Shown one piece after another: positions 11,301 to 53,377 of a stretch of DNA of 53,377 nucleotides. The DNA comes from a virus (lineage: Duplodnaviria; Caudoviricetes). The translations under genes and the position numbers were made by a program. Position 1 is the first letter of the stretch. Each line of letters starts with the position of its first letter. Below the pieces are notes generated by a model. It had not been told where the DNA came from. It worked only from the letters and a program-made list of their open reading frames with translations, and did not search any database. Location: positions 1 to 53,377 of IMG/VR virus record IMGVR_UViG_3300005043_000142, one strand, 5' to 3'.

Positions 11301-13410
11301 CCTTTGGCTGCTTGTGCTTTCTGATCTGATCCTGAACATTCTCTGCAAGACGGTCTGCACGCCCGTCATCACTGAAGTCGATTGCATCAGCACCAGGCAC
11401 AGCTTCATCAGCGAGCTGTAAGGTCTCACTTACTGGAATATCCGGTCGCTGATACGGGATATCGTTGGTTTCTTCAACATCCACCAGTGGTGGCAACTCT
11501 GCAACCTCTGCTACTGGCGGAGGAACATCACCCAATACAATGCTCTCAGCATCTGCAGGGATTTCATCAACATCTGCAACCGGCGGGCGAACGCCTGGCT
11601 GCTTACCCTGCTGCTCAGTAAAGGCTCGCTCTGTAGCAGCTTTGGCGGCCTTCGCCTCTGCCGTGGTCTCCATGTAATACGGCGCATCAACGCTGGCCGG
11701 AATAGCTCGGGCCGGGTCAGGCTCGTAGTCAGCTACTTCCGGCATAAGCGTTTCAATTTCTTCGTAGGTCTCACCATTCTGTGCCTGTGCCGGTACTGGC
11801 AACTGTTCGGCACGGCCAACCATTTCGCCAACCGCAACATATTCCGCAGGAAGACCGCCTTTGTACTCTGGTGCTGCTGCTTCCATTACGTCGCGATAAA
11901 TCTTCATGCCGCGCTCACGGAATCGCTGCGCGCCTTCCAGATCACTTTCAGCAACCATATCTGCGGCCATTTCAAAATTGCGCTTGGCTGCTCGCAGGCG
12001 TACCGCCTCATCGGTAAAGCCTTGCTCTTCGGCAATTCGGATATCATCGTCAATGCCGCGATACTGGCCGCGCTCGGCTTTAATCTGCGCTAAAGCATCA
12101 TCCAGACTCATAGTTGGCGCTGGCTGTACCTGAGCCATAACGTCAGGGTTAGTTTGGATTGGCTGCATTACACGGCCTTCTTCGTCAACCTGCTGAACAC
12201 GGGCCGGTAGTTTATTTTCTGACGGCTTACCTTTGCTCATGCCGCCCATAACGCCACCAAAGGCACCACCAAGCACACCCTCGTTCAGTGCATTGGTCAT
12301 AACCCCTTCCATAGGGTCCCGGTCAGGATCAACGTCCTGCTCGATCATGGCGGTATTCAGAGCGTACTGCTCCATACCGCCCTGTCCCATTTCCGTAGCA
12401 CCTTGCGCCAAAAACTGCTGACCAGCATTGCTTAACCGACTGCCGGTACCAACACCCCGTAAAATACGGTCAATGAAGTAGCCGCCAGCGGCATCCAGTA
12501 CCAGGTTGGTGGTAATCAGCATTGGGTCGCGCTGAACAGCGCTGGACACTTCATCGGCAACCATCTTTTTAGCAAGGTCGCGGCGCTGGCCAACGTCCAT
12601 ATCCGGGTGCGTATCTACCATGCTCCAATAAGCGCGGCTGAATGCTGGTGACTGGTCCAGCTCAGCATCTGACATTTCCAGTACGGATTCCCGTGCCTCA
12701 TTACCAATCATACCTCCGGCAATACCGGCACCAGCCAGAGACTGGCCGGCAGTGCCAAAGGTGGCTTTGGTCACGTTCTGCGCGTAATGCTTAATGGCTT
12801 CTTCAGTCATGCCGCGACCAGCAGCGTGCTTCGCTGCCGCCTTCGCAACAACCTTCCCGGCAACCTTTGCGCCCAGCGTACCAATGCCATAACCAAGCGG
12901 AATCTGTGCGCCCATCTGGCCTACCAGCGTCATAAACTGCAGCCCCATGGCCCGCGGGTCAGTCCAGGCATCACCAAAGCCCATGCTGCCATTTTCATCT
13001 TCGGTAAAGAACTGCTTTTGCATCGCAGCCTGGCCGGTATCGCTCATTTGGCTGATTTGATCTTTTGCCAGATTGTTCAGTGCCTGACTGGCATTGCCCA
13101 GGGTTTCGCTGCCAGTAATCTGATGCGCGGTTTCAGCCAAGCCACCGGCCGCCTGCGCCGCACCCATCTGAATGGCATCAACAGCATCGCCAAAGAATCC
13201 CTGGTTGCTTTCAGGTGCCGGCATCGGTTCGGCGCTCACGGCTGGCCGGTAGGCACCGGGCGAACCCTGCTGAAAGGCAAGGTCATATAGGCTTGGTCGC
13301 TGATTCATCCGCTCGCCGCGCTCGCCGCGCTCGCGGGCATTTTGCTGGCGCCGGGCAATAGCAGTTTCGCGGTCCAGATCATTCAGACCGACAGTCGTAT
13401 TCTGAGTCAT
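2296..13410 (-). CDS. Giant polyvalent virion/ejection protein (InPase-like, N6-adenine MTase, zincin-like, MuF-C/PBECR-like and LPD38-like domains)
   Basis: 3704 aa. Motifs IENPRGS..HYGY..GADGEHIDV; FFPTP, EPSAGNG, NPPF; HEALGH; HPGMTAEQWKKLPEWIENPAAVF; PFLNARLQG, IPKPFEVG. Last gene of the virion operon. Confidence 0.85.
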   Translation of the reverse strand: MTQNTTVGLNDLDRETAIARRQQNARERGERGERMNQRPSLYDLAFQQGSPGAYRPAVSAEPMPAPESNQGFFGDAVDAIQMGAAQAAGGLAETAHQITGSETLGNASQALNNLAKDQISQMSDTGQAAMQKQFFTEDENGSMGFGDAWTDPRAMGLQFMTLVGQMGAQIPLGYGIGTLGAKVAGKVVAKAAAKHAAGRGMTEEAIKHYAQNVTKATFGTAGQSLAGAGIAGGMIGNEARESVLEMSDAELDQSPAFSRAYWSMVDTHPDMDVGQRRDLAKKMVADEVSSAVQRDPMLITTNLVLDAAGGYFIDRILRGVGTGSRLSNAGQQFLAQGATEMGQGGMEQYALNTAMIEQDVDPDRDPMEGVMTNALNEGVLGGAFGGVMGGMSKGKPSENKLPARVQQVDEEGRVMQPIQTNPDVMAQVQPAPTMSLDDALAQIKAERGQYRGIDDDIRIAEEQGFTDEAVRLRAAKRNFEMAADMVAESDLEGAQRFRERGMKIYRDVMEAAAPEYKGGLPAEYVAVGEMVGRAEQLPVPAQAQNGETYEEIETLMPEVADYEPDPARAIPASVDAPYYMETTAEAKAAKAATERAFTEQQGKQPGVRPPVADVDEIPADAESIVLGDVPPPVAEVAELPPLVDVEETNDIPYQRPDIPVSETLQLADEAVPGADAIDFSDDGRADRLAENVQDQIRKHKQPKGLDDGRLLRESFRNQLNHMANRLVRGGGIVQMVDKSGRVTGRTKSLNPDWFQNAPDNVKRLGVQGLQIAVRRSLAGKDLGKGQARAVRYLLDVFTDERNDYARDYLKPERENVLKFRKVMRGQMTAQEAGFVDADTPLARSVGAKQVELSDILEPEILEESFDDDALDSMGRALAEIMQNAKNAGVSDQVLVKAAQEYGHDPIALGMIIEELTERASNGNEITPASIEGFAAGGALEEESAEAEKSAGSGKRKSGAEKSVEPPDAGRASEKNIDEETPAAAGVSVSEARLTEVELLREYRDRWQYKFYPGGSWKYANSKEGAVKNATEAYQKAKPDELLTRDQRNLNADREEYESMDSRFSEMGREEIERTIKKLDADSESLRKVGQREFNGNGGRRTGAAVASEGSRRNAEERAKLQRYYRERFGEEYQGPSAIRNSAGNPFKNIGSARIALKKHPDYEIAKVGGGYELRRIPEGAATATNGNMAEPPRTGALDMNDDLSGEIDAAANEAATSPLNDKPEPTAAQIEAGNYEKGHVTVQGLDIAIENPRGSQRSGTDPDGKAWSVTMAHHYGYLKKTEGADGEHIDVYLGKNPESEKVFIVDQVNADGSFDEHKIMLGFTDKAKAITGYKENYEKGWKVGPVNELTMQQFKDWIATGDTEKPIDAGLSKAADKTGSESKKPESDKQAKPLTIDDINRESLESAYDVKKATQAYSHSVRSPGVPAKMHRDDFANTILNTQKDLQVITKSDQQKTVLDSEIVDFANEYLKRDAAVLAAREGVASSFIAGRNKFNGKQASARGNAFDRAQDSFSSWVKSRQSEIRNKVLAARTPEEIEAERAELKKQLDEKQQKREQSETELMKKAIQFKPGDEWKFGDYQVKRVTKGRDGNPVSVIVDAPTGELTSNTFNLKSIVFKGDDNAYLAAIERARADIPAESATPVALPDNLPPHEAVNALMRRLNGGDAVPASEVLQVFESVVADPDATKAALAKLKKAELVDHVRGYVYSDTQKDQLVRMAYSGIVQSFRFIGNNSGVVTWSHGDNVEAITQEHIKSLSDADISAYAADRKALIDEKIKAHQDYMERLKNPQTLEDYRRLIQVKGIDSLSVEQRATYDRLTAEKALEEKPVQAVKKGLETEGEIKTGEPEEGQNSKTGETIFNVKVIDRLGTDKFKEAAAFARRMKGGYWKGNFYFPSVETAQQFREWLNGKDIDLTEQVAQRLGEKKARAAARLQQMADRMKEAAEAELNTTRRANTIRQADMAASAVAKAEGAAVTAEVMRRVVNGEAPLLSRMTEKVQAELLARYTRGLVHNASADLTDRDNNGNRFFKADVTPEQMVSGAQMPLDFMYADSLEYIARDMEKVKGHKQAAASLRTLIRGAGDDKRIALNDRVRERIMNFASKHGESHMTYTDVSNQRKRLERMGITSLPVLRAALVEYINLKNSIDRPKKNNRLDDMEQALKRTVLSNRKAFNDFFPTPNDTAAEVVELADIQPGMAVLEPSAGNGMLADSIKGAGGNVDVVEMAGQLREILQEKGHNLIGNDFLELPADEKYDRIVMNPPFSKNQDIDHVTHAYSMLKPGGRIVAIVSSMAGDRSDSKNKAFRNFLNAIAADEQALPEGAFKSSLNPTGVSTKVLIIDKPESGGGETNTEMASGESSEVLFSLPRDNDPGLQKAIADRLKEMAQIAKDKGPSNPVDRSDTPPMADYVRKWIAGVEDDLGVKIEVVETKHDLPESVKADLGSAFNEVEFEGFYNTVTGRTYLIASHLTSRAAAVRAALHEALGHGAVINFIEAQRENGGKALDQVLDDIYQRIGKKLLMKKIQRYNLDLSKVRDRRDAVLEYIAHVAEEGKQMGLVRRVVAALRDLIRKIYPGIGWNDTDTLALIAKSKLHLQQEGTRGVVASRGFVMKQSDETQKRFENRIDALFSGSPASRQGVRILDGADILALLGFDDKPLHLVESAVGKKESGQIKHPGMTAEQWKKLPEWIENPAAVFKSQTQPGSLVLFAPEVVNGRPVRIILKPNAQAAGLDVHLAINAYEEGGSHITPVDKWVKNGDLLYLDEKQSPELNARSGLRLPRDVRQLRGLKTRVLIDRDLVNYRNQKGGGVRGLFRLSDALANDASLTDDQKAALSKIGPKSAAQTAIDRVRDTMTNWRLKVRQGLVDRYAGLLELDKQLLDGNVTSEENITKSAWVKARMSNAAGGAVSAMMNAGRVMLDADGVIDVKKDTSGLIYTLNQLGSAAEVERFMGWIAGNRGEKLMAEGRENLFTPEDIAALKDLNTGAMTDGRDRNATYEKVFAEFQQHRDDVLAIAEKAGIITSENREMWANEFYVPFYRLDEEAEQAQGPRVGGGLSRQQAYKKLKGGTQNLNDLLQNTIMNFHHLLDASLKNMAATQAVDNALELGVVEQTAEAIRDKKQSTFVLRNGEKIWYDVADPLVFQALTSLNPTGMNSTAMKVMRWFKRTFTNLTTSTPQFIVANLIRDSLSAISVTDMKYNAAGNVVQGLKSFGLSNRGGYQRARLMASGGAFSFGHAYGEDAEFIRYQIDGQMRRGKVLRDPKALLGHGLKPLQAAWDRWQDVNNSFENANRMAAFEQAEAAGKGKLYAAFQARDLMDFSASGAWPAVRFLIDVVPFLNARLQGLDKLYRSGVKPTTKVVMQMLGVGSIEASVTERQAAARFSAVVAALSVATMALYLRNQDDEDYQKAEDWMKDTYWWIRIPGTEHVGLIPKPFEVGAIATLAERLLEQAVDDQATGDLFAERLGHMLTSTFAFSPVPQMLQPAFDIYANRDSFTGRDIETMGQQRLSPSNRVNDRTTLVAEMMGTGLEATFGPDSKLALSPVQIDYLISGYFGQVGAWMVGHTDVLKRALSNNDAPARHWYEYQPIRRFYRNMDDPQSDKQTTLFYESLRDAARLHADVQQLKVEGNYAEAAELEKGNRDLLNGRLTLDRVNRKVTAINARIKAIKASQALSADEKRRQIDLLQLRKKQLIERVMPVVEKSQQ
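10450..10477 (-). terminator. Perfect 12-bp terminator-like stem-loop inside the giant gene
   Basis: AGAAACCCCGGC-AGCG-GCCGGGGTTTCT with T-rich tails on both strands. Confidence 0.55.
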
Positions 13411-13431
13411 CTTAATTTTGAGCCTTTTTGT

Positions 13432-15003
13432 TTAAAGACCGGCCAGATCAGCCGAGCGAGACGAGGAATTGTTGGCAGCCATAAGCTGCGCCATTTCTTT
13501 TGCGTATTCCGCAGCCTTCAAAGAATCAGGGCCTGCTGCAATCATTTGCTGTAGCCGCTCAATTCGCTGTTCACGTCGATCGCGCGGGGTTTTTGGTGTC
13601 GGCGGGGCTGATGCTGCAACGGTATTTTTGCCCCGTAATTCTTCAGCTTCAGCCTGGAATTTCACACGGGCGTTTTCCGGATACCGCGGATCGGCGGCTT
13701 TTGCCTCCAGCTCCTGAATTTGTGCGGTAACGCGGCGATCAATCTGGTTGGGCATCGGCGGTTGAGCGGTCTGAGCAATTTGCTGTTCAACCTGCTGCAA
13801 GCCCGGACGACCAAAGACTTCCGGATTGGCGGTCATGGCATTATCAATGCTGACTTCTGCTCGCTGGCGCGCCTCGATTCCAGCCATCACCTGCGCCACA
13901 TCTTCATGTGTTAATTCGCTGTAGTCGCCGGACTGGCGCTTCAGCTGGTGTGCTTGCAATACAACTTCCGGCGGCACACCCCACTTAATTGCAATGTCAC
14001 GGTCAACTTCAGCGGCTGCAGCCGCGCGTTCTTCCGGTGTTGTAAAATTGGCACTAGTGCGGATTTCCTGTTGCATTTTCAGGTAACCATCCACATCAAA
14101 AACACCGGTTTTTCCACCACGCCCCGAACCTGAGCCTCCGCGACCGTCATTTACAGAAGCGCCGCCAAGCCAATGTGAAAACTGCGCGTCCGATTTTCGG
14201 ATTGCAGCCGCCCGCTTGGTGCCGGTGGCTTCATCGTAAATATCGCGCACCTCGTAGCCATCGCCCCGCTCTTGCCTGCCCAGCACAATCTCGCGCAGAG
14301 CCGCAGTAAATGCCTTTGGATCATTCTTATGCCGCTGCAGGTTGTACGCCATATTGGCCCGGTGCAAAGCAGCCTCATGCCACTCGTTAATTTTTTGATC
14401 ATTGATTGTATAAATATCATCGTCAGGATCACCCGTACCGTTCCTGGTGAGTGGCGCGGTATATTTCGTTCCGTCACTTTTAGTAACCTCTAAAATCGGA
14501 ACCATACGAACATCTTCAACGCCATCACCGTCAGCATCCTTTCCCGTAGGTAACTCTTTTGCACCAATAATGCGCCGGGCCATTCCGTCTGTTTTTGTAC
14601 GTGCTGCGAGATCATCTTTCAGCATTAAATTAATACCGTCCAAGGCGCGCTCATCCCATTTGTTTTCAGAGACGGCGCGATGCATGAGCGTTCCGGCCTG
14701 CATCATTTCTTCCCGCTGCTCATCAGATTCCAGTTTATTAATACCAAGGCCGCTGTATTTCTTCCAAAACCCCTGATCTGGCGCTTTACCAGCTTCTGCG
14801 AGAGCGCGAGTCTCGCGGTCAAAATCAACAAGAAGCTGCTTGTTCTCTCGGTCTTCCTTTTCCATGCCGAATTGTTCTTTCTGCATTGCAAACTGCTCAT
14901 CAGCACGATCATTCGCCCGCTGCTGCTGCTGCATGCCATTCACAAATGAAGCGCCCTGCATCAGACCGCCCATAAAATTCATTGTGCTTAATCCGCCACT
15001 CAT
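13432..15003 (-). CDS. Putative DNA ejection/internal virion protein
   Basis: Gly/Gln-rich N-terminus, coiled coil, position directly before the giant gene. Confidence 0.65.
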   Translation of the reverse strand: MSGGLSTMNFMGGLMQGASFVNGMQQQQRANDRADEQFAMQKEQFGMEKEDRENKQLLVDFDRETRALAEAGKAPDQGFWKKYSGLGINKLESDEQREEMMQAGTLMHRAVSENKWDERALDGINLMLKDDLAARTKTDGMARRIIGAKELPTGKDADGDGVEDVRMVPILEVTKSDGTKYTAPLTRNGTGDPDDDIYTINDQKINEWHEAALHRANMAYNLQRHKNDPKAFTAALREIVLGRQERGDGYEVRDIYDEATGTKRAAAIRKSDAQFSHWLGGASVNDGRGGSGSGRGGKTGVFDVDGYLKMQQEIRTSANFTTPEERAAAAAEVDRDIAIKWGVPPEVVLQAHQLKRQSGDYSELTHEDVAQVMAGIEARQRAEVSIDNAMTANPEVFGRPGLQQVEQQIAQTAQPPMPNQIDRRVTAQIQELEAKAADPRYPENARVKFQAEAEELRGKNTVAASAPPTPKTPRDRREQRIERLQQMIAAGPDSLKAAEYAKEMAQLMAANNSSSRSADLAGL

Positions 15004-15012
15004 GGGATCACC

Positions 15013-15252
15013 CTATAAAAACTTGTAAGTCAGATAACCAACGCCAGCGCCAGCGACAGCCCCTACCGGCCCGCCAACCATAAAGCCTGCGCCAGCCCCC
15101 ATGGCGATAGCGTTTTTACGTGAAGCATCATCCGCCTGCTTGATCTCTTGCCACGCCTGCTTTCGCTGCCCTTCCATTGCTGCGGCGTGCTCTAACCCCT
15201 GATTTGCGCTGCTATCCAAATCCCGCTGAATATCCACCAATCCGTATGACAT
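15013..15252 (-). CDS. Small virion protein with glycine zipper
   Basis: GAGAGFMVGGPVGAVAGAGVG. Confidence 0.65.
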   Translation of the reverse strand: MSYGLVDIQRDLDSSANQGLEHAAAMEGQRKQAWQEIKQADDASRKNAIAMGAGAGFMVGGPVGAVAGAGVGYLTYKFL

Positions 15253-15254
15253 GA

Positions 15255-15788
15255 TTAACCTCCCGCTTTTGGCAGCATGGAACCTGCGAGAAGTGCGTTT
15301 TCGCGGTCGGTGGCTGCAAGTCGTGCATTGTTTTCAGCATCGATTAATGCTGCCGTTTTATTTCGGCTCATATCCGAAGCCCTGTCCGTTTTCTGCATAT
15401 CGCTCAGACCAATCCCCATGCCGGTGTCACGCATTTGTTGTGACTGCTGCGCCAGATTAAACCCGCGATCAACCCCTTCTCGTGCCTGGTCAACCGCTCT
15501 TTCGGTATATTCACCACTGGTAATGGTGTCGGCGTAATTCAGGATGTAAGGCATGTCGTTTTTTTCAAACTCATCCCACTGACGGCGCTTTATCTCGGCA
15601 TTAATTGTGTCGTATGACTTACCAGCCATGCTGTCGCCGATTAGTACACCGTCTTTTTGCAGCTGAGCTTTTCGGTCTGCTATCCGCTGATCCTGACCCG
15701 GAATATCCGATAGGCCAGCTGATGATTCATTGGATGGAATCGAGACGCCGCCTTTGCTTTTATTCTTGGTTTTAACGAACATTGACAT
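15255..15788 (-). CDS. Putative internal virion protein
   Basis: Operon position and helical composition. Confidence 0.6.
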   Translation of the reverse strand: MSMFVKTKNKSKGGVSIPSNESSAGLSDIPGQDQRIADRKAQLQKDGVLIGDSMAGKSYDTINAEIKRRQWDEFEKNDMPYILNYADTITSGEYTERAVDQAREGVDRGFNLAQQSQQMRDTGMGIGLSDMQKTDRASDMSRNKTAALIDAENNARLAATDRENALLAGSMLPKAGG

Positions 15789-15790
15789 AA

Positions 15791-16510
15791 CTACTCCGGC
15801 TTAGGCTTTCGATTCATGTAGGCTTGTCCGGCCATGCCAGCCGCCGTTCCCAATGCAGCACTGGTAGCAGCCTTGCTGTTAAACTTACCGAACGCTTTTT
15901 GCGCAGCCAGTTGATTGGCTCCTTCGGCGATATCCTGCAAGCCAGCCACGGCTTTAGTTTTCTCGCCCATTGCCATGGCAATGCGGTTGTTCTGACCTTC
16001 AAGGTGCGCGGAGTCCAAAGCAAATTCCGACTCGGCCTGCGCATTACCAACCGCTTGCCCCGTCGCATCCTGAACCGCAGTCATCGCGCTGGAAGAACGC
16101 CCTGAGCTGGGATCAACACCAACCTGGGCCAGACCGGTCTGCACCTGTCCGGCCAAATCATTACTTTGATTCTGAGCGTCAATATTTGCCCGGCCCGATA
16201 CCGCATCCTGCATCTGCTCTGAGCCCAATCGCTCCACTCGATTTGCGTATTCGTTTTTAACGAAATCCATTTGACGAGCAAAGTCATATTCTTTGACTGC
16301 AACGTCCGCAGCCGCTTTTTCTGATGAAGATTCACCTGGCTTTTCAGGCCCCTTGCCAAGACCGAGGCGCTCAGACGCTTCATTGGCCATGCCGTAGGTA
16401 CCCATCGTCGAAATATTCAACAAGCCTTCTTTGGTTGTCGGGTCAATTTGGCTAAGGCCTTTTGAAACCGATTTTCCGACTTTCTTTACGGCTTTCTTAG
16501 CCTTACCCAT
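15791..16510 (-). CDS. Putative internal virion/ejection protein
   Basis: Start reassigned to MGKAKK (GAGG RBS); Ala/Gly-rich C-terminus. Confidence 0.6.
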   Translation of the reverse strand: MGKAKKAVKKVGKSVSKGLSQIDPTTKEGLLNISTMGTYGMANEASERLGLGKGPEKPGESSSEKAAADVAVKEYDFARQMDFVKNEYANRVERLGSEQMQDAVSGRANIDAQNQSNDLAGQVQTGLAQVGVDPSSGRSSSAMTAVQDATGQAVGNAQAESEFALDSAHLEGQNNRIAMAMGEKTKAVAGLQDIAEGANQLAAQKAFGKFNSKAATSAALGTAAGMAGQAYMNRKPKPE

Positions 16511-16982
16511 TGCGCACCTCTTCAGTCTTTGCCATTGCAGCAACGGTATTACCCACAAGCCATTGATCACGGAATTCACCGCCGATCACTTTGCTTTCTT
16601 TTTCCAAGCCCTCATCAACCATGCCGTTAATCTTGGCAAAGTGATAAACCTCTGGGAAACACAATGGAATGCGTGCCTGCAGCTTGTGAATGCCTGGCAG
16701 CTCTTCCTGAATCAGTGACAGGCATTGCCGCCATGAAAGGTATTTGAATCTGCGGAATTCCGGCAAAATGTGAGCGTGAACATCCAGCGTCGTGCTGCTA
16801 AGCGCTGATAACCACCACGCGCCAATTAATTTTTGATGCTCGAAGGTGCCAATAAATAAATCATCCGGCCCCTCTGCCAGATCGTCAGCTGTGCACCCGT
16901 CTTCAGAAATTCTCTGAAAGATTTCAGGGTACAGAAGTACCGCCTTTGCATCTTCAAAGGAAATAAATTTAGAAGTGATCAT
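16503..16982 (-). CDS. GNAT-like (DUF2824-like) virion assembly protein
   Basis: DVHAHILPEFR and GMVDEG motifs; typical podovirus position ahead of ejection genes. Confidence 0.65.
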   Translation of the reverse strand: MITSKFISFEDAKAVLLYPEIFQRISEDGCTADDLAEGPDDLFIGTFEHQKLIGAWWLSALSSTTLDVHAHILPEFRRFKYLSWRQCLSLIQEELPGIHKLQARIPLCFPEVYHFAKINGMVDEGLEKESKVIGGEFRDQWLVGNTVAAMAKTEEVRNG

Positions 16983-16997
16983 AAGAATTCAGGCAAT

Positions 16998-17029
16998 AAA
17001 AAAGCCCAGTCGGAAAACCGGCTGGGCTT
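16998..17029 (-). terminator. Rho-independent terminator
   Basis: AAGCCCAGCCGG-TTTT-CCGACTGGGCTT followed by a T tract on the minus strand. Confidence 0.85.
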
Positions 17030-17053
17030 GATTGAAATTTGGGCATTTTAGAA

Positions 17054-17082
17054 AAAATACCATGTAGCGTGCACACGGGCAA
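17054..17082 (-). promoter_or_regulatory. Sigma70-like promoter (second late promoter candidate)
   Basis: TTGCCC-17bp-TATTTT with TGn extension; spacer shares GCACGYTA with the promoter at 34043-34071. Confidence 0.6.
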
Positions 17083-17085
17083 GAA

Positions 17086-17772
17086 TCAGATGATTTCTAC
17101 CCACGCGCCATTTTGGCGGGCGTAAATTTTCCCATCGCTTGGTGCGTCAGGAATAATTAAAAGGTTTCCGATCTGAGTGTCGGTGTAGGAATTGGCAGCC
17201 TGAACGGCTGCTGCTTCCCGGTCGTCGGTGTAACCCTTAGCGGCGTTCAGCACCTGATTGGCTGGCGCACTGGTTGCAGAAAGTCCGGCAGAGAATGGCC
17301 CGGTGTTGGCACCCAGCGACACATCAACGACATGGCGAAGAAAGTAATGCCAGCTCTGGCCATTCCCAGCCTGATAATCAACATACGAATTACCGCCAGT
17401 AAAACCAATTTGGGCAGCATCCTGCAATAACCCCGTAGCTGATCGCCATACTTCGGTTTTACCGTGACCACTGTAAGCGGGCGTAGCCCAGTGGATAACA
17501 ATGCCATCCGGTATCACAACAGCAACGACTGCTGAAGGTCGCCCTGGAATTACCTGACTCCCGCCCTGGCTGGGTGAGGTGTTGCCACCGACCCCCGAAG
17601 CTGCGGGCAATACCCCGCCACGGGAAATCATCTGCTGAACTTCGGATATCGTCGGCTTGCGATCATTTTTATCCCCGCGCACCCCTTCGGAAACCTCCAG
17701 AGCCTCAATAACCTTTTGCAAAGCCATCGGGTCTTTCGGATTGATCGACTGCACCCGCCTACGGTTAGTCAT
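17086..17772 (-). CDS. Tail-associated protein with FN3-like domain and C-terminal foldon motif
   Basis: Ends IPDAPSDGKIYARQNGAWVEII, resembling the T4 fibritin foldon. Confidence 0.7.
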   Translation of the reverse strand: MTNRRRVQSINPKDPMALQKVIEALEVSEGVRGDKNDRKPTISEVQQMISRGGVLPAASGVGGNTSPSQGGSQVIPGRPSAVVAVVIPDGIVIHWATPAYSGHGKTEVWRSATGLLQDAAQIGFTGGNSYVDYQAGNGQSWHYFLRHVVDVSLGANTGPFSAGLSATSAPANQVLNAAKGYTDDREAAAVQAANSYTDTQIGNLLIIPDAPSDGKIYARQNGAWVEII

Positions 17773-19349
17773 AGCAGTTCACCCATAGAGCTGGCCAAAG
17801 CCAAAGCATTTACCCGTCCGGCACACTCAACCTGCATGGTTAAACGACGCGGGCGGCCCGCTGGCAGCCGAAAGCCTTTGTCCGTGGCTACCGTAGTAGC
17901 AAAGGCATAGTTATCGCCTGTGAGCGTCATCGTGGCGCTGGCGTCTGCATCAATACGGCCGGCACTCATAACCACGGACGCGCTTAATACAAACTCGCGG
18001 GATTTCCATATCATCGTTTTATTGTCACCGGCGTCGAATACCTGAACGCTGTGCGTATTGTTGCTGTGACGAATAAGCAGATACAACCGATCCTCATCCG
18101 CCTGGTAGTGGCCATTGAGAACCGTATCGCCCGGGTCGCCGCTCAGCTGCAGCGGGAAGACACCATTGTCCAGGTTGAAAATAAACGATTTAACCGCACC
18201 AAAGCACAGGTATTGGCCCCGGTAACGGAATGCCCTGAACGTGGCGGGCTGCAATGCAAGCCACTGCTGTCGGCTGAAAAATTGCTTACTCACAAGCTGC
18301 ATACCGGAAGGCCCGGCCATCATCAGTCCTTCACTGGTCGGATACAGGGAATAGTCACCCATATCAACATGGCCGCGACGGCTCAGGCATGAGGCCCGAA
18401 CATCCAGCCGGGTCTGACTCATGGCTGCCGGGTGCGCTCCAGATACCACCCAAGGGTTACCGGTTGTGGTTACAACCAGCGAACCAGCAACGGTAGCCAG
18501 ACTCACGATGTCATCAGGGAAAGCCAGCTGGTAATCCAGCGGCCAGGCGTGCGGATAATATGGTTCGCTAAAGCACAGCGTGTTGCCGAAAAATCCAGCC
18601 ATAAAGCCATTGCCTACAGTCACGAGCCCCTTCATACCCGCCGGCGGATGGTTCCAGCTTTCAGAATTGCACGGTGCGCCAAGCGCATTGCTATTCACGC
18701 TGTCGTTATATGACGTAGTGGCTGCAGCGATTTCCGCCACAAAATTAAAGAAACCGCCGCCCTCGCTTCGGTAAATTCGTCGCGTTGCTGCTCGGCTGTC
18801 ATTGCTGGCACCCAGCGTCAGGGGAATTGTTGCGCCATCCCAGCGGTTAATAATTTGGGTGGTGTCGGATGGTTCGGATTCTTCGCCCCTGGCAGTTACC
18901 GCTGTCACGTAGTACGCGCAGCGCAAAACTTGTGAATCAGGGTTTGTTGGTTCTGCAGTTTCCCAGCTGGCAGGAACCGAAGGCGTAGGCGGTTTGTTAA
19001 TTCCAAGGCTTGTTGTTGTTAATGTGCTGCCAGATAAAAACGCCACCTGCGGCTGCAGAAGATCGCCAGCCATGTAAACCCGCTTCCAGGCATCATTGGC
19101 AATCGGCCCGCGTATGAAATCGGCATCATCCGTGCGGGTCAGTACCTTGGTTTTATCAAACGGGTAAATCGCCCACGAATTAACGGTTGTGGCTGGCGCA
19201 GAAAACCCACTGGCCAGCAGGTCACGGATAGGCACCAGCGAGCCGCCTTCCATCCGGGCGTTGTAGGTTTCGCTCGCGTAATTCTCCGGCAGCAGCTGCG
19301 GCGCAACCACCGGCATCTCACCGGCAAACTGAGTAATGCTCAGCTTCAT
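17769..19349 (-). CDS. Tail nozzle/stabilisation protein
   Basis: FAGEMP N-terminus, CFSEPYYPHAWP, beta-rich; podovirus tail position. Confidence 0.7.
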   Translation of the reverse strand: MKLSITQFAGEMPVVAPQLLPENYASETYNARMEGGSLVPIRDLLASGFSAPATTVNSWAIYPFDKTKVLTRTDDADFIRGPIANDAWKRVYMAGDLLQPQVAFLSGSTLTTTSLGINKPPTPSVPASWETAEPTNPDSQVLRCAYYVTAVTARGEESEPSDTTQIINRWDGATIPLTLGASNDSRAATRRIYRSEGGGFFNFVAEIAAATTSYNDSVNSNALGAPCNSESWNHPPAGMKGLVTVGNGFMAGFFGNTLCFSEPYYPHAWPLDYQLAFPDDIVSLATVAGSLVVTTTGNPWVVSGAHPAAMSQTRLDVRASCLSRRGHVDMGDYSLYPTSEGLMMAGPSGMQLVSKQFFSRQQWLALQPATFRAFRYRGQYLCFGAVKSFIFNLDNGVFPLQLSGDPGDTVLNGHYQADEDRLYLLIRHSNNTHSVQVFDAGDNKTMIWKSREFVLSASVVMSAGRIDADASATMTLTGDNYAFATTVATDKGFRLPAGRPRRLTMQVECAGRVNALALASSMGELL

Positions 19350-46218: not shown

Positions 46219-46479
46219 ATGGGTGACATGGGAGAGATATTCAACGCAATGCGCGAAGACAGCAAGAAGCGCCGTGAAGCGAATCGTGCAAATGCACCGC
46301 AGATTCTTACTGATGCAGGTATCGAGTATGAATCAAAAAACCATGGAGCCCACCTGATCGTAACCGGCAGCAATTGCCTGATTGATTTCTGGCCGGGAAC
46401 CGGAAAGTGGATCAGCCGTAATGGAAAAAAGGCCCGCGGAGTTCGCAGCCTGATTAAACACATTAAAGAAGGAATATAA
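46219..46479 (+). CDS. Hypothetical phage protein
   Basis: MGDMGE start and [10 protein letters not shown]; AAGGA RBS. Confidence 0.75.
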
Positions 46480-46481
46480 CG

Positions 46482-46697
46482 ATGCTTATTTTAACCCGCC
46501 GTATCGGCGAAACAGTAATGATCGGCGACGACATCAATATCACCGTGCTCGACGTAAAGGGCAACCAGGTGCGCCTTGGAATTAATGCTCCGCGCGAAAT
46601 GGGCGTGCACCGTAAAGAGGTTTACGAGCGTATTCAGGCTGAGAAAGAAGCCGAAGCTGACAAGCCGAAACTTGAAAGCCAGTACGCCACCGCATAA
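46482..46697 (+). CDS. csrA: Phage-encoded CsrA/RsmA RNA-binding protein
   Basis: MLILTRR.GET..IGD......VKGNQVR.G.NAP....VHR; RNA-contact Arg44 retained. Confidence 0.96.
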
Positions 46698-49773: not shown

Positions 49774-50411
49774 ATCAACCACTGCAAACACTGGCAAAAC
49801 TAGCGGAAACCGTTGGCGTTGATTACTCGGCCATTAATTCAGATGACATGATCATCCAGACGGCTGAAGCGGCACTTAAAGAAATTAAACGACTAACCAC
49901 GGAACTGTCCAAAGAAACTGTACGCAAAGAAGCCGCGTATGCGAATGAACAACGGCTTGATAACGACAATTTAGAGCTTCGCCGGCGCATTTTTGCGCGC
50001 TTTAACGAAGACGAGTGCTGGATCTTTCAGGACGACGGCCACGACTACCCCGAAAGCCTAGTGTGTCCCGTTGTAATGTCTGCCGGGAAACTGCGAGAGC
50101 TGGTTGAGGCGCGATCCGAGCTGGATGAAATGGCCGCGCGGGTGGAGCGGTTTCGTGAAATCGTCGTCTCATACTACACAACCGGCGTATGCGTCAGTGA
50201 CGTTAAAAACATTCTCGCAGAAACCCCACCACCCGCTGCACTCGAAGCCCTGAAATCGCAGTGGCAGGCTGATCAATATAACGACGGAATGCCAGCACAA
50301 AAAGCGTTCTGGGAAGGGTTTGAACGCGGAGTAATGAATGGCGCAGTAAATATAAGGGCGCACTGGAATGAATATAAACAGCGCGTACAGGAGGCCGGTG
50401 ATGAAGTTTGA
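49770..50411 (+). CDS. Ead/Ea22-like coiled-coil accessory protein
   Basis: Coiled coils and ETP..A motif; located in the exo-xis region. Confidence 0.5.
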   Translation: MNQPLQTLAKLAETVGVDYSAINSDDMIIQTAEAALKEIKRLTTELSKETVRKEAAYANEQRLDNDNLELRRRIFARFNEDECWIFQDDGHDYPESLVCPVVMSAGKLRELVEARSELDEMAARVERFREIVVSYYTTGVCVSDVKNILAETPPPAALEALKSQWQADQYNDGMPAQKAFWEGFERGVMNGAVNIRAHWNEYKQRVQEAGDEV

Positions 50412-50931
50412 AAAATTAGACGAACTGGAAATGTTCGAATTGCTTCAGGCGGCATACCCTGAAAAGTTTATTAACGAAGATGACGAAACATGGGATGCTG
50501 CCCAGCAATTCGCTGATGACCTTAGCGGATGGGAAGACATTGCCGAACTTCTTGGGCGCGTCGTTATGCTTACAATGCCGATGGGATCAGGTATTACAAA
50601 ACGACTTTCGCATTGCATTGGGCCAGTGACTATTGCTGATGGAAAGGCTCATATGATTGCTGCTGTACGAAGAGACGCACAGGAGGCCGGTGATGAATAA
50701 GGTAAAGCTTACTGCGCCTGGCCAGATTGAGCGCGGCTGCAAAATTCACTGCACATTCAGCGGAAAGCCGCAGACCTATCGTGCAAAAGTAATCCTTAAT
50801 GCTGGAACCGATAAAGAGGAAGTGCTGATCAACATAAAGAAAAACCTCTATTTCATAACCAGCATGGCGATAGATGGCAGCTCATGGGCTAAGGATGTGT
50901 ACTTTGAAGCAGCACAGGAGACCGGTGATGA
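50387..50931 (+). repeat. Three copies of ACAGGAGRCCGGTGATGA at successive gene junctions
   Basis: Copies at 50387-50404, 50679-50696 and 50914-50931. Confidence 0.92.
50401..50700 (+). CDS. Hypothetical protein
   Basis: RBS and ATG are supplied by repeat copy 1. Confidence 0.75.
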   Translation: MKFEKLDELEMFELLQAAYPEKFINEDDETWDAAQQFADDLSGWEDIAELLGRVVMLTMPMGSGITKRLSHCIGPVTIADGKAHMIAAVRRDAQEAGDE

Positions 50932-50935
50932 CTGA
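50693..50935 (+). CDS. Hypothetical protein
   Basis: RBS and ATG are supplied by repeat copy 2. Confidence 0.75.
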   Translation: MNKVKLTAPGQIERGCKIHCTFSGKPQTYRAKVILNAGTDKEEVLINIKKNLYFITSMAIDGSSWAKDVYFEAAQETGDD

Positions 50936-51230
50936 AGACCAGAATGCATTGCTGATTTTTATGGAAGAACTGGGCGAAGTCGCGGCAGAGCTGCTGAAAC
51001 TGCAGAACCAAGTATCGAAGGCAATTCGCTTCGGCATTGATGAACAGCGCGATTTAGCAACATCAAACCGCGAGCGCATTCAGGCTGAGTGGAATGATCT
51101 TCTCGGCTCGATTCAGGTTCTGGCAAAGCACGGAGTTGATCTGCAGCCGAATATCGCCGCTATCGCCGCGAAGGTAGAGAAAGTCGAACGATACACGTCA
51201 TACAGCAAGCAATGTGGGCAGGTGTCCTGA
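50928..51230 (+). CDS. MazG-like NTP pyrophosphohydrolase
   Basis: EELGEV...EWNDL (EExxE...ExxD). Confidence 0.7.
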   Translation: MTEDQNALLIFMEELGEVAAELLKLQNQVSKAIRFGIDEQRDLATSNRERIQAEWNDLLGSIQVLAKHGVDLQPNIAAIAAKVEKVERYTSYSKQCGQVS

Positions 51231-51454
51231 TGAACGAGCATAAAACCATCCAGATCGTCGCGGCTCCCGGCCACGAAGAATATGTAAAGGAGCTGATGGA
51301 AAAGCAGCTGAAAAAGGCCGGGCTTACGATAGCAATCTGCCCCACCGGCCATGAGGCTTTCTTCGAGGAATTAAAAACACCTGCAGTCCCACAACTGCAG
51401 AACCGAGAAACATGGCGCGGCAAAGGCAAGCGCCGGATGCCGAGAGGTAAATAG
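51230..51454 (+). CDS. Hypothetical protein
   Basis: TGATG coupling. Confidence 0.6.
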   Translation: MNEHKTIQIVAAPGHEEYVKELMEKQLKKAGLTIAICPTGHEAFFEELKTPAVPQLQNRETWRGKGKRRMPRGK

Positions 51455-51456
51455 CA

Positions 51457-51672
51457 ATGGCAACTGAATACGTCGATCTGGTAACCGATGCCGGCGAACT
51501 GATCCGCATCGAATGCCCGAATAAATACACCGACGAGCTGTACGACTCGCTGGAAAATTCGATGAAGCGAAAAGACTGGTGGAGCCCTTCACAGTTTGAT
51601 GGCTGTACCGCTACTTACATGGGGTTGATTATTTCCCGCGTAGCGATGAGCAAAATTGTCGGGATGCTTTAA
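51457..51672 (+). CDS. Hypothetical protein
   Basis: GAGGT RBS; stop codon lies in the TAAC of the attC-like site. Confidence 0.7.
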   Translation: MATEYVDLVTDAGELIRIECPNKYTDELYDSLENSMKRKDWWSPSQFDGCTATYMGLIISRVAMSKIVGML

Positions 51673-51743
51673 CCCCCAGCTTTGCGGCTTGGAATGAACG
51701 AGGAACGAGAGAATGGAAAGTCCGAAAGAGTGTGTTGTTATGT
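51667..51743 (+). other. attC-like integron recombination site 1
   Basis: CTTTAAC ... GTTATGT (77 bp) with imperfect inner arms CTTTGCGGCTT / AAGTCCGAAAGAG carrying bulged T and G. Confidence 0.7.
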
Positions 51744-51943
51744 GCTCAATGCCTGAAGATCGAAACAGAGTTGAAACGGGTGCCATTCAATTTGGTGGTG
51801 ATTGGCCAGGGGTTTTTATTCGTGGCGACAATGCGGCCTACTACAGTATGGCGCTTGATAGTCTTTTGAGTGGCAATGTTGACCCTATGACTCTGGGAAT
51901 ACTAAGCGGTTTAAATGAGCTATTGAAATCTAGTCATGTTTAG
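51740..51943 (+). CDS. Hypothetical protein in a cassette-like unit
   Basis: ATG lies within GTTATGT (alternatives at 51713 and 51749); RVETGAIQFGGDWPGVFIRGDNA. Confidence 0.7.
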   Translation: MCSMPEDRNRVETGAIQFGGDWPGVFIRGDNAAYYSMALDSLLSGNVDPMTLGILSGLNELLKSSHV

Positions 51944-51945
51944 AC

Positions 51946-51995
51946 ACATAACAAAGATATTCCCCGGCTCCGTCCGGGGCAATGAAGTGTTATTG
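51946..51995 (+). other. Short attC-like hairpin 2
   Basis: ACATAAC ... ATTCCCCGG-CTCCGT-CCGGGG(C)AAT ... GTTATTG; 50 bp. Confidence 0.5.
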
Positions 51996-52025
51996 GCAAC
52001 AGCAGGCAGCACAGAAAACAGAGCC

Positions 52026-52256
52026 ATGAAGGGCTTAATGAAACTGAAGATACGAACAATGGCTTTACTCGAATTGGGTGCCTGGATATCAAAGCGCTTT
52101 GAAAACCCCCGCCCAAGTAAGCGCACTGCACAGCACTGGTGCGTTTCTGGTGCTGTTCCAGCAAAAAAAATCGGCAACAAATGGTTTGTTGATACTGACG
52201 CAGAACAGCTGGAAACTGGGAATGATCTGGTTGATCAAGTATTGCGAGCGAGTTGA
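52026..52256 (+). CDS. xis: Excisionase
   Basis: PSKRTAQHWC..G...AKKIGNKWFVD; coupled to the integrase; start uncertain. Confidence 0.8.
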   Translation: MKGLMKLKIRTMALLELGAWISKRFENPRPSKRTAQHWCVSGAVPAKKIGNKWFVDTDAEQLETGNDLVDQVLRAS

Positions 52257-53377
52257 TGGCACCAAGAGCACGAAAGCACAAAGGGCTGGAGCCAAATCTA
52301 TACCAGTCCGAGCGAAAGAACACGACCTATTACCGTTACAAGCACCCGATAACAGGGGCTTGGCACGGAATGGGCGACAATAAGGCCAAGGCCAATGCAG
52401 CTGCGCGCATTTTAAATGCAAAGCTTCTTACTGGCGGCGCAGGATTGGTTGAGCGCGTACTTGGGATCGCTGACAAAACAATCTCTCACCTCGTTGAGCG
52501 TTTCCGCGCTGAGCGCCTGCCAGAGCTTGGGCTTGCCGCAGGAACGCAGAGAAACACAGAATACCGTCTCAATCGAATAGAGCAGGATCTTGGAAATCGC
52601 ATCATTTCGACAGTCACAACCCAAGACTGTGCAGAGTGGCTTGATAATAATTTCGAACGAAACCCTTACGTTAAGCACCGCGGTACACTGATAGACCTGT
52701 TTCGGTTCGGTGTTACAAAAGGCTATTTGCAGAACAATCCGGCAGATCCAACTTACGCGCAAAAGCAGGATAAAAAAGCGCGCCAGCGCATGACGCTGGA
52801 GCAGTACAAGGCTCTACACGCAGCTGCCCCGTCATGGCTAAAGATCGCCATGGAGATTGCATTAATCACGCTGCAAGGCAGGTACGAAGTCTGCCATATG
52901 CGATATGACGCAATCAGAGACGGCGCGCTGCACGTTGTTCGTGAGAAAACCAAGAAAAACGACTGGGCGCGATTGAGGATCATGATGACCCCCGAACTGG
53001 AGGAAGTTGTGCGAAGATCCAGAGATGACGGTATTGTGAGCCCTTACATTGTTCATTGGCGTCCAAGTAGGATTAAGCCATCGAAAGATACCGACCACTG
53101 GAGCCAGTTCAGTCCAAACAAGTTCGGTGCAGAGTTCCGCAAAGTGCGTGACACGCTTTCGGTGTTCACCCGCATGCAAAAAGAAGAGCGTCCAACCTTT
53201 CACGAGATTCGTTCGCTTGGTGCGTGGCTGTATGAGCAAAACGGCTATCAAACAGACTACGTTCAACAGCTCATGGCCCACGGCGATCAGGCTATGACCA
53301 AATACTACCAGCAGGGCCATTCGGAAAAATGGGTGCAGGTTGAGGCCGGTTTGTGCATAAACGAACTGATCAGTTAG
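52256..53377 (+). CDS. int: Tyrosine integrase with lambda-like arm-binding domain
   Basis: LEPNLY...YYRYKHP; catalytic R, K, HEIR, H and Y residues. Confidence 0.96.
   Translation: MAPRARKHKGLEPNLYQSERKNTTYYRYKHPITGAWHGMGDNKAKANAAARILNAKLLTGGAGLVERVLGIADKTISHLVERFRAERLPELGLAAGTQRNTEYRLNRIEQDLGNRIISTVTTQDCAEWLDNNFERNPYVKHRGTLIDLFRFGVTKGYLQNNPADPTYAQKQDKKARQRMTLEQYKALHAAAPSWLKIAMEIALITLQGRYEVCHMRYDAIRDGALHVVREKTKKNDWARLRIMMTPELEEVVRRSRDDGIVSPYIVHWRPSRIKPSKDTDHWSQFSPNKFGAEFRKVRDTLSVFTRMQKEERPTFHEIRSLGAWLYEQNGYQTDYVQQLMAHGDQAMTKYYQQGHSEKWVQVEAGLCINELIS

What the first reader, a model, noticed from the sequence alone, without database searches (positions are those of the whole stretch)
51667..51995. 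Integron-style gene cassette (attC-ORF-attC) in a phage with no integron integrase
Seen: site 1 has a TAAC holding the upstream stop, an unpaired spacer, arms with bulged G and T, an internal CGAGGAACGAG and GTTATGT holding the next ATG. The single ORF is followed by CACATAAC, the exact complement of the GTTATGTG that opens it, then a second bulged hairpin ending GTTATTG. Known: this start/end complementarity is the signature of a cassette integrated from a circle by IntI. Inference: the phage uses attC sites and a host IntI to capture or shuffle accessory genes next to xis. Caveats: both cores deviate from the RYYYAAC/GTTRRRY consensus, and site 2 is shorter than typical attC sites.
Basis: partly seen in the sequence, partly recalled or inferred. 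Interest (0 to 1): 0.82.

Follow-up and report, generated by a model that had tools for sequence, protein, structure and literature searches.

The report
Integron-type gene cassette in a phage
A small phage gene next to the excisionase sits in a swappable cassette bounded by integron-style folded recombination sites, built the opposite way round from bacterial integrons, in a phage that has no integron integrase.

Summary
The core idea, a cassette inserted from a circle, holds, but the geometry needs correcting.

Site 2 (51945-51996) belongs to a family of 44-62-nt hairpins (TAAC...GTTA). These separate small genes around xis-int in related prophages (G213, L136, L147, L149, L150, L002).

In 21 of 22 neighbouring element pairs, the 4 nt after GTTA of one element complement the 4 nt before TAAC of the next (87 of 88 nt). 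No shuffle in 100,000 reached this. Two real integron arrays show the same signature.

Near-identical phages carry other inserts at this exact slot: 336, 597 and 671 nt. Three comparisons of relatives place the crossover at the 5' TAA|C on the coding strand. The cassette is therefore 51673-51951, not 51738-51989. Site 1 is the cassette's own, decayed attC. Site 2 is the resident site and stays with xis.

Genes lie on the attC bottom strand, inverted relative to integrons.

No IntI was found in the window or in 4 related virus records, so the recombinase is untested.

attC clusters in phages are already in print (Qi et al. 2023). Earlier notes of this scan report inverted phage arrays on other DNA.

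The parts
51457..51672 (+). 71-aa ORF, the conserved left flank of the slot. Its TAA stop (51670-51672) is the TAA of the left recombination box.
   Evidence: It is 97% identical in L134 and L135, and homology ends at 51670-51675. Contigs of runs X2, X7 and X19 also cover it. No Pfam or PHROG family.
51670..51744 (+). Site 1, the cassette's own decayed attC-like site (TAAC...GTTATGTG). Its loop carries the SD GAGGA and the ATG at 51713. Its right box holds the ATG at 51740.
   Evidence: It lies inside the variable module. The same 64-nt block (86% identity) heads a DNA methylase gene in G213, with a compensating change of the box flank. Its interior aligns collinearly with the bottom strand of a true attC of G346: score 16.5, reached by 0 of 1000 shuffles and by 10 of 1489 natural window segments. 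Against: it folds no better than shuffles, and neither my CM nor my HMM hits it.
51673..51951 (+). The gene cassette (279 bp) as inferred: C of the left TAAC through the TAA of the right TAAC.
   Evidence: Inferred crossovers are at 51672|51673 and 51951|51952. Observed borders against relatives are 51670-51675 and 51946-51949. End complementarity is GTTA|TGTG with CACA|TAAC.
51713..51943 (+). Cargo gene: a 76-aa protein of unknown function. An alternative start is at 51740.
   Evidence: 31 homologous clusters, 80 viral loci and 17 genome loci in many phyla. Invariant core R19, E21-G23, D30, P32, G38-A41. AF2 model pLDDT 85.2. No fold match at E<=0.001 in PDB or BFVD. No Pfam or PHROG family.
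51945..51996 (+). Site 2, the resident attC-like site (CACATAAC...GTTATTGG). It is a diverged type A element that closes the array just upstream of xis.
   Evidence: It is conserved with xis-int in L134 and L135 (3 differences in 47 nt) while the gene upstream differs. Type A elements occupy the same position in G213, L136 and L150. R1 scores it 13.4 bits, E 0.083, by its ends only. Fold z is -2.2 and -1.5.
52026..52256 (+). Excisionase (xis). The start may be 52026, 52038 or 52059.
   Evidence: phrog_629 excisionase, 1.3e-9. Weak HTH_17 hit.
52253..53377 (+). Lambda-type tyrosine integrase with an arm-binding domain. It is not an integron integrase.
   Evidence: PF09003 2.1e-14 and PF00589 3.9e-13. 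phrog_1. No TIGR02249 match in the record.

Best explanation
ORF76 is the cargo of an integron-type gene cassette (window 51673-51951). It was inserted as a circle by a tyrosine recombinase acting on folded single-stranded sites. The crossover lies between A and C of 5'-TAA|C on the coding strand.

On that strand a cassette reads: C, hairpin body, GTTAnnnn, (RBS) ORF, n'n'n'n'TAA. Site 1 is the cassette's own attC, now decayed. Site 2 is the resident site that stays with xis-int.

The coding strand corresponds to the attC bottom strand, so genes are inverted relative to bacterial integrons. They are read by the phage's own early transcript. The TAA of the box often doubles as the upstream gene's stop codon.

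Shown here: complementary cassette ends, border positions, several alleles at the slot, and likeness to true attC sites. Inferred: the folding, the chemistry, and the enzyme, most likely a host IntI.
For: 1. End complementarity. In 9 arrays (WIN, L002, G213, L136, L150 twice, L149 twice, L147), the 4 nt after GTTA of element i complement the 4 nt before TAAC of element i+1. This is perfect in 21 of 22 pairs (87 of 88 nt). Pairing an element with itself gives only 42-45 of 88. No shuffle in 100,000 reached the observed value; the best had 12 perfect pairs. There are 10 distinct flank pairs.

2. Positive control. True integron arrays read on their bottom strand show the same relation. G346 gives 21 of 28 to the next element against 8 of 28 to self. 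G199 gives 29 of 36 against 9 of 36.

3. Compensating change over a distance. The homologous site 1 block has GTTATGTG with CACATAAC in the window, and GTTATGCC with GGCATAAC around the G213 methylase gene.

4. Alleles at the slot. The flanks are 96-97% identical, but the middle differs: 336 nt in L134 and L135, 597 nt in X2 and X7, and 671 nt in X19. The borders are 51670-51675 and 51946-51949.

5. Which element body goes with which gene.
- WIN against L135.
- G213 against L149: 95.5% identity up to TAACCC after int, resuming at ATAAC of the last element at 92.8%.
- G213 against L150.
In all three, the first body is variable and the last body is conserved.

6. Polarity.
- The 3' arm is longer on the coding strand in 20 of 30 evaluable elements, equal in 7 and shorter in 3. 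On true attC bottom strands it is longer in 4 of 4 evaluable.
- My CM of type A elements hits true attCs of G199 and G346 over their exact extent, on their bottom strand (17.0 bits, E 0.04; 19.5 bits, E 0.008).
- ORFs in those integrons are antisense to that strand.
- Element interiors score higher on attC bottom strands in 20 of 29, on top strands in 7, and equally in 2.

7. Structure is conserved while sequence varies. The type A consensus has 18 pairs, 7 of them with compensatory changes.

8. Literature. The attC rules (bottom strand, AA|C cleavage, EHBs on the other arm, UCS, VTS) are from Nivina et al. 2016, PMC5027507, introduction read.
Against: - Site 1 folds no better than shuffles, even when joined into its circle form (z 0.35). 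It also carries the SD and a start codon of ORF76.
- Site 1 is not hit by my type A CM or my type B HMM.
- Site 2 matches the CM only by its ends (13.4 bits, E 0.083).
- Elements are 44-62 nt from TAAC to GTTA. Many fall below the published attC minimum of 57 bp.
- The 336-nt allele in L134 and L135 has no recognisable attC of its own.
- The neighbouring slot (50930-51455) is also replaced in relatives, at a plain junction repeat with no hairpin. Ordinary mosaic exchange therefore operates here as well.
- No IntI was found in the window or in 4 related virus records, 2 of them complete. The G213 host has only a partial IntI-like ORF.
- The site 1 to attC likeness is modest against a natural null: 10 of 1489 segments reach it. 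BLAST over whole genomes does not find it.
- IntegronFinder and HattCI could not be run.
- The 22 pairs are not all independent, because related phages share ancestry.
Confidence: 0.72

Rival explanations
1. Ordinary phage mosaicism. The hairpins would be RNA-level punctuation in the early transcript (terminators, processing sites or stabilisers). Genes would be swapped by homologous or relaxed recombination in the conserved flanks and linkers, with no site-specific enzyme.
For: - The next slot upstream (50930-51455) is replaced in L135 and X2 at a junction repeat with no hairpin.
- Flanks of 96-97% identity would allow homologous exchange.
- Some elements share the RBS leader downstream: right extension of 14 nt or more in 8 of 34 similar pairs.
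- The coding strand folds slightly better as RNA in 19 elements, the other strand in 11, with 2 ties.
- One substitution pair in the L135 copy of site 2 keeps a U-G pair on the sense strand only.
- Site 2 matches a terminator-like pattern, though on the - strand.
Against: - It does not explain why the 4 nt after one element complement the 4 nt before the next element rather than its own (21 of 22 pairs). True integrons share this property.
- It does not explain the conserved unpaired spacer or the arm asymmetry.
- It does not explain homology borders falling on TAAC in 34 of 34 similar pairs (left extension 0-5 nt).
- No T run follows the stems on the + strand.
Confidence: 0.13
2. The same cassette mechanism, but run by another tyrosine recombinase: host XerC/XerD acting on folded DNA as with CTX phage, or the phage's own lambda-type Int. 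The arrays always flank the Int gene.
For: - No IntI in the window or in 4 related virus records.
- The G213 host has no intact IntI.
- Arrays always lie beside xis-int, and each array is closed by a dedicated type A element placed where attI would be.
- XerC/XerD are the only other Y-recombinases known to use single-stranded substrates (PMC5027507, introduction).
- The box halves resemble inner dif arms. This is recalled and was not tested.
Against: - The elements resemble true attC sites of integrons in related genomes, in sequence and in polarity.
- IntI is present above the curated cut-off in 3 of 5 related genomes.
- Phages with different attP cores and tRNA targets share the same TAAC/GTTA boxes. 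This argues against the phage Int core specificity.
Confidence: 0.12
3. Chance: the motifs at 51667-51995 are coincidental and nothing special is there.
For: Site 1 has no fold signal. An 8-mer complement at a gene's two ends is expected about once in two windows of this size (my estimate).
Against:: the family, the arrays, the alleles at the slot and the flank covariation.
Confidence: 0.03

Closest known systems
CALINs (clusters of attC sites lacking an integron integrase) and attC sites in bacteriophage genomes: Qi, Rajabal, Ghaly, Tetu, Gillings 2023, Front Microbiol, PMC9892861. I read the abstract and sections 3 and 3.4. The supplements are closed.
   Same: - Phage-borne attC-type sites and cassettes with no IntI in the phage.
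- DNA methylases among the cargo: N6_N4_Mtase in G213 and Dam in L150, as in their CALINs.
- They showed that IntI1 recombines 5 of 6 tested phage attCs.
   Different: - Here the arrays flank the xis-int module of lambda-type temperate phages integrated at tRNA genes.
- All genes lie on the attC bottom strand.
- A conserved type A element closes each array.
- The sites are short (44-62 nt).
- They reported mostly same-direction arrays in virulent phages. I could not see whether their supplementary CALINs include relatives of this phage.
Bacterial integron cassettes and attC sites: sedentary chromosomal integrons and mobile integrons. attC rules as in Nivina et al. 2016, PMC5027507 (introduction read).
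   Same: - AAC/GTT boxes, an unpaired spacer, an inner stem, a variable loop and a longer arm opposite the cleavage site.
- Complementary cassette ends.
- A crossover consistent with AA|C.
- The same next-element signature in the G199 and G346 arrays.
   Different: - No intI, attI or Pc.
- Genes are inverted relative to the sites and expressed from phage transcription.
- The boxes depart from RYYYAAC/GTTRRRY (for example CAATAAC/GTTATTG).
- The sites are shorter than 57 bp in many copies.
PeSL promoter/stem-loop cassettes of T4-type phages: Arbiol et al. 2010, PMC2839356, and Comeau et al. 2014, PMC4122927. I saw the search listing and abstract starts only.
   Same: Repeated structured intergenic motifs that flank small accessory genes and are proposed to mediate modular shuffling in phage genomes.
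   Different: As described, PeSLs are promoter-terminator motifs that act through homologous recombination. Here the flank covariation points to site-specific exchange at a fixed point, and the elements resemble attC.

Membership tests
Integron attC recombination site | Conserved AAC...GTT triplets forming an R box at the two ends of an imperfect hairpin | tested here: met
   All 31 elements used begin with TAAC and end with GTTA. This includes site 1 (51670-51740) and site 2 (51949-51992).
Integron attC recombination site | In an array, the outer box bases pair with the neighbouring site's flank, because the crossover splits the box (cassette ends complementary) | tested here: met
   21 of 22 pairs are perfect (87 of 88 nt), and no shuffle in 100,000 reached this. 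True arrays give 21 of 28 and 29 of 36.
Integron attC recombination site | Unpaired central spacer, L box, extrahelical bases on the arm opposite the cleaved AAC, and a variable terminal structure | tested here: inconclusive
   The 3' arm is longer in 20 of 30 evaluable elements. The type A consensus has conserved bulges and a G-T pair, with 7 of 18 pairs covarying. Type B has a CC/TT spacer. The exact EHB positions and 6-bp spacing were not verified. Site 1 alone shows no fold signal.
Integron attC recombination site | Length of 57-141 bp | tested here: not met
   From TAAC to GTTA the elements are 43-59 nt in the arrays, or 49-65 nt with full 7-nt boxes. Site 2 is 50 nt with its boxes. Site 1 is 71-79 nt.
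Integron attC recombination site | Recognised by the curated attC covariance model (IntegronFinder) or by HattCI | not testable with these tools
   Those programs are not available here, and no attC family came up in my Rfam scan of the region. As a substitute, my own CM of phage type A elements hits 2 true attCs on their bottom strand, out of 18 attC sites that I marked by eye or pattern in L145 and L151 (E 0.008 and 0.04).
Integron attC recombination site | Recombined by IntI | not testable with these tools
   This needs a bench assay.
Integron (complete) | intI gene with attI and Pc next to the array | tested here: not met
   TIGR02249 has no match in the window or in 4 related virus records.
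CALIN (two or more attC sites, no intI nearby) | At least two attC sites close together without an integron integrase | tested here: met
   The window has site 1 and site 2, 279 bp apart, and no IntI. The status holds only if the elements count as attC, as argued above. Relatives have 5 to 10 elements.
Canonical integron cassette orientation | The ORF lies on the attC top strand, with the attC downstream of its gene | tested here: not met
   Borders, arm asymmetry, CM hits and alignment all place the ORFs on the bottom strand, with the attC upstream of its gene. In the G199 integron, the longest ORF is on the top strand in 9 of 10 cassettes.

The most novel reading that the evidence does not exclude
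These phages may carry their own version of the integron system. In it, cassettes are built with the gene on the recombining strand. Arrays are anchored on both sides of xis-int by a dedicated terminal (type A) site that plays the part of attI. Exchange would be active in nature, since at least 4 alleles occupy one slot in near-identical phages from different metagenomes. The enzyme might not be IntI at all, but XerCD or the phage integrase.
Probability: 0.25. Interest if true: 0.85.

Novelty: new variant of a known kind. Interest (0 to 1): 0.7.

Why it matters
Integrons are usually treated as bacterial gene-capture devices. Here a temperate phage carries accessory genes as integron-type cassettes beside its integration module. 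The gene at one slot differs between phages that are otherwise 96-97% identical. This suggests phages use the cassette route to trade small accessory genes, including DNA methylases that protect against restriction.

The inverted polarity also matters. It means the cassettes are tuned to phage transcription rather than to an integron promoter, so they are not simply stray pieces of a host integron.

The case gives directly testable substrates: site 1, site 2 and the type A and type B elements. These can be used to ask which recombinase acts on them and which strand is used.

Tried and rejected
**No useful result**
- Close relatives in cultured phages: megablast and blastn of 51200-52400 found nothing. 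A tblastn of ORF76 gave one weak hit in an uncultured phage.
- The Int query found nothing in viral contigs or genome contigs. A site 2 pattern found nothing in viral contigs.
- The Rfam scan of 50000-53377 gave only two chance-level hits.
- The protein atlas gave no score of 0.9 or more.

**Alignments and models that failed**
- MAFFT plus RNAalifold gave no usable consensus for the true attCs. The same was true for all phage elements together and for type B alone. I therefore built no CM of true attCs and no type B CM.
- My first automatic attC finder in L145 was too crude. I then fixed the sites by eye and by motif.
- R1 over 151 genomes of the order found nothing, but only 39 candidates per genome were scored. 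This says nothing about prevalence.

**Readings I changed or dropped**
- I first took the conserved VVML of the ORF76 family as proof that the gene starts at 51713 and that GTTATG is only coding sequence. I withdrew this when the same letters proved to be the right box of an element in L002 too. The true start, 51713 or 51740, remains open.
- I considered site 2 as an intrinsic terminator. The only consensus match is on the - strand, where no gene needs one.
- Xer/dif-like and IHF-like resemblances are recalled only. I did not test them.
- No partner box for the platform flanks was found near the locus.

**Not resolved**
- Run X2 shows a joint 51675 to 51948 with 'between: not known'. I cannot say whether it is an empty site.
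- Sequencing runs with small word shares were not used as evidence of habitat.

Full report
**What is there**

The window is a 53,377-bp provirus record with no integron integrase (TIGR02249 has no match). Its right end reads as follows:
- a 71-aa ORF (51457-51672);
- a 76-aa ORF (51713 or 51740 to 51943);
- a hairpin;
- an excisionase (52026-52256, phrog_629);
- a lambda-type integrase (52253-53377; PF09003 and PF00589).

Site 1 folds no better than shuffled sequence (z +1.17 and +0.36). Site 2 folds moderately better (z -2.18 and -1.51).

**The cargo**

ORF76 is a real gene. It has 31 homologous clusters, 80 viral loci and 17 genome loci across several phyla. It has an invariant core and a confident AF2 model (pLDDT 85.2). 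It matches no known family or fold.

**The slot is polymorphic**

Contigs from other metagenomes share the 71-aa ORF and everything from about 51948 onward at about 96-97% identity. The stretch between is replaced:
- 336 nt with a different ORF in L134 and L135;
- 597 nt in runs X2 and X7, and 671 nt in X19.

The joints lie at 51670-51675 and 51946-51949. Site 2 stays with xis-int. Site 1 goes with ORF76.

L134 also joins the int end to the start of the window through an attP that holds a tRNA 3' piece. The window lineage therefore has no array downstream of int.

**Site 2 belongs to a family**

The closest integrase in 401 sampled genomes is in G213, at 60% identity. Its prophage and the loci L136, L147, L149, L150 and L002 carry many hairpins of 44-62 nt that begin with TAAC and end with GTTA. 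Each sits between a stop codon and the next RBS.

There are two subtypes:
- **Type A** has a covarying GC stem: 18 consensus pairs, 7 with compensatory changes. It always closes an array, either just before xis or just before the attP arm.
- **Type B** (TAACCC...GTCC...TTGTTA) separates the small genes.

Site 2 occupies the type A position. It is a diverged copy: my model R1 scores it 13.4 bits, E 0.083, by its ends only.

Other ATAAC...GTTAT matches, in the window (32643, 33134) and in unrelated loci, look like chance.

Similar elements share almost nothing upstream: the left extension is 0-5 nt in 34 of 34 pairs. Some share sequence downstream.

**The decisive test**

Across 22 neighbouring element pairs in 9 arrays, the 4 nt after GTTA of one element complement the 4 nt before TAAC of the next. 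The match is perfect in 21 pairs (87 of 88 nt). An element's own flanks match at only 42-45 of 88. No shuffle in 100,000 reached the observed value.

The homologous site 1 block in G213, which heads an N6_N4 methylase gene, has GTTATGCC with GGCATAAC. That is a compensating change across about 700 nt.

Two genuine integron arrays show the same relation. I located them beside or near IntI genes in related genomes. G346 gives 21 of 28 to the next element against 8 of 28 to self. G199 gives 29 of 36 against 9 of 36.

This is the expected footprint of cassettes inserted as circles, with the crossover inside the box.

**Which way round**

Complementarity alone does not say whether the hairpin body belongs to the gene before it or the gene after it. 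Comparisons of close relatives do:
- WIN against L135;
- G213 against L149, at 95.5% identity up to TAACCC after int, resuming at ATAAC of the last element;
- G213 against L150.

In each case the first body is variable and the last body is conserved. The crossover is therefore at the 5' TAA|C of the coding strand, and a cassette is body plus downstream gene. For the window this gives 51673-51951.

Published rules say IntI cleaves between A and C of AAC at the 5' end of the folded bottom strand, with the extrahelical bases on the other arm (PMC5027507, introduction). Four observations fit those rules:
- The 3' arm is longer on the coding strand in 20 of 30 evaluable elements, equal in 7 and shorter in 3. 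It is longer in 4 of 4 evaluable true attC bottom strands, though that script stopped after 8 of 10 sites.
- R1 hits two true attCs over their exact extent, on their bottom strand (E 0.008 and 0.04). The integron ORFs are antisense to that strand.
- Element interiors score higher on attC bottom strands in 20 of 29, on top strands in 7, and equally in 2.
- The site 1 interior aligns collinearly with the bottom strand of a G346 attC. The score is 16.5, reached by 0 of 1000 shuffles and by 10 of 1489 natural window segments.

The phage genes therefore lie on the attC bottom strand, the reverse of bacterial integrons.

**What argues against, or remains open**

- Site 1 has no fold signal even in its joined form. 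It carries the SD and the ATG at 51713, so it may be a decayed site.
- The L134/L135 allele has no recognisable site of its own.
- Many elements are shorter than the published 57-bp minimum.
- The slot just upstream (50930-51455) is swapped at a plain junction repeat. Ordinary mosaic recombination therefore also acts here.
- No IntI is encoded by the window or by 4 related virus records, 2 of them complete.
- IntI is above the curated cut-off in 3 of 5 related genomes, but only partial in G213. The window's host is not held.
- The recombinase is therefore inferred, not shown.
- The standard attC detectors could not be run.

**Comparison with what is known**

attC sites and CALINs in phage genomes are in print, including methylase cassettes and IntI1 activity on phage attCs (Qi et al. 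2023, PMC9892861, sections 3 and 3.4 read).

My searches did not turn up a description of three features seen here:
- arrays flanking xis-int of lambda-type phages;
- all genes inverted relative to the sites;
- a dedicated closing element.

After I had reached the inverted-cassette reading, a look-up showed that earlier notes of this scan report similar inverted phage arrays on other DNA. They agree with my result, but I did not use them as evidence.

**Verdict**

- The enzyme is untested.
- I file this as a new variant of a known kind.

Noticed in passing
window 50930-51455 (also 50387-50939): The two small ORFs just upstream of the 71-aa ORF are also replaced in relatives (L135; joint 50930 to 51455 in run X2). 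The borders lie at the GTGATGA stop/start junction repeat and at the ATG of the 71-aa ORF, with no hairpin. This matches the junction-repeat note e1-6337665.
   Followed up: partly
L134 2227-2521; L135 3421-3640: Downstream of int in the window lineage lies attP/attR. It has a tRNA 3' fragment and a 15-bp inverted repeat that contains GTTATTGA and TCAATAAC. L134 runs from the int end into window position 1, so it is a circular or junction form. L135 continues into other DNA that holds a second lambda-type integrase.
   Followed up: partly
L150 1657-1706 and 4508-4557: One viral contig carries two xis-int modules in tandem. Each is headed by an identical type A element, with 103 nt of shared sequence after it, and four cassettes lie between them.
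   Followed up: no
L113 (G213:C21) reverse strand 7592-9168; L136 6176-8235: Arrays of 4 and 6 cassettes lie between int and a tRNA-Val gene. The cargo includes an N6_N4 DNA methylase in G213 and a Dam methylase in L150. The other ORFs are small, and the four I scanned have no Pfam family.
   Followed up: partly
L151 (G346:C18) 7413-11379; L145 (G199:C6) 11043-19123: These are genuine integron cassette arrays in genomes that also carry related prophage integrases. The first two G346 sites happen to have the same box flanks (GCTT, TGTG, CACA) as window sites 1 and 2.
   Followed up: partly
type A and B elements, e.g. window 51971-51973: A nearly invariant GTC sits at the 3' side of the apical loop in both element types. 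I have no explanation for it.
   Followed up: no
L135 1965-1991: The 336-nt allele ends with a 6-bp inverted repeat (TTAGGT and ACCTAA) with arms 9 nt apart, abutting site 2. It may be the remains of a box pair.
   Followed up: no
window 46469-46645: A CsrA-like gene is shared at 75% nucleotide identity with the G213 prophage.
   Followed up: no
alignment A1, columns before the RVETG core: The V-V-M-L motif near the N-terminus of many ORF76 homologues is the right box (GTTGTTATG) of an upstream element read in frame. The variable N-terminal extensions of this family may therefore be translated hairpin bodies.
   Followed up: partly
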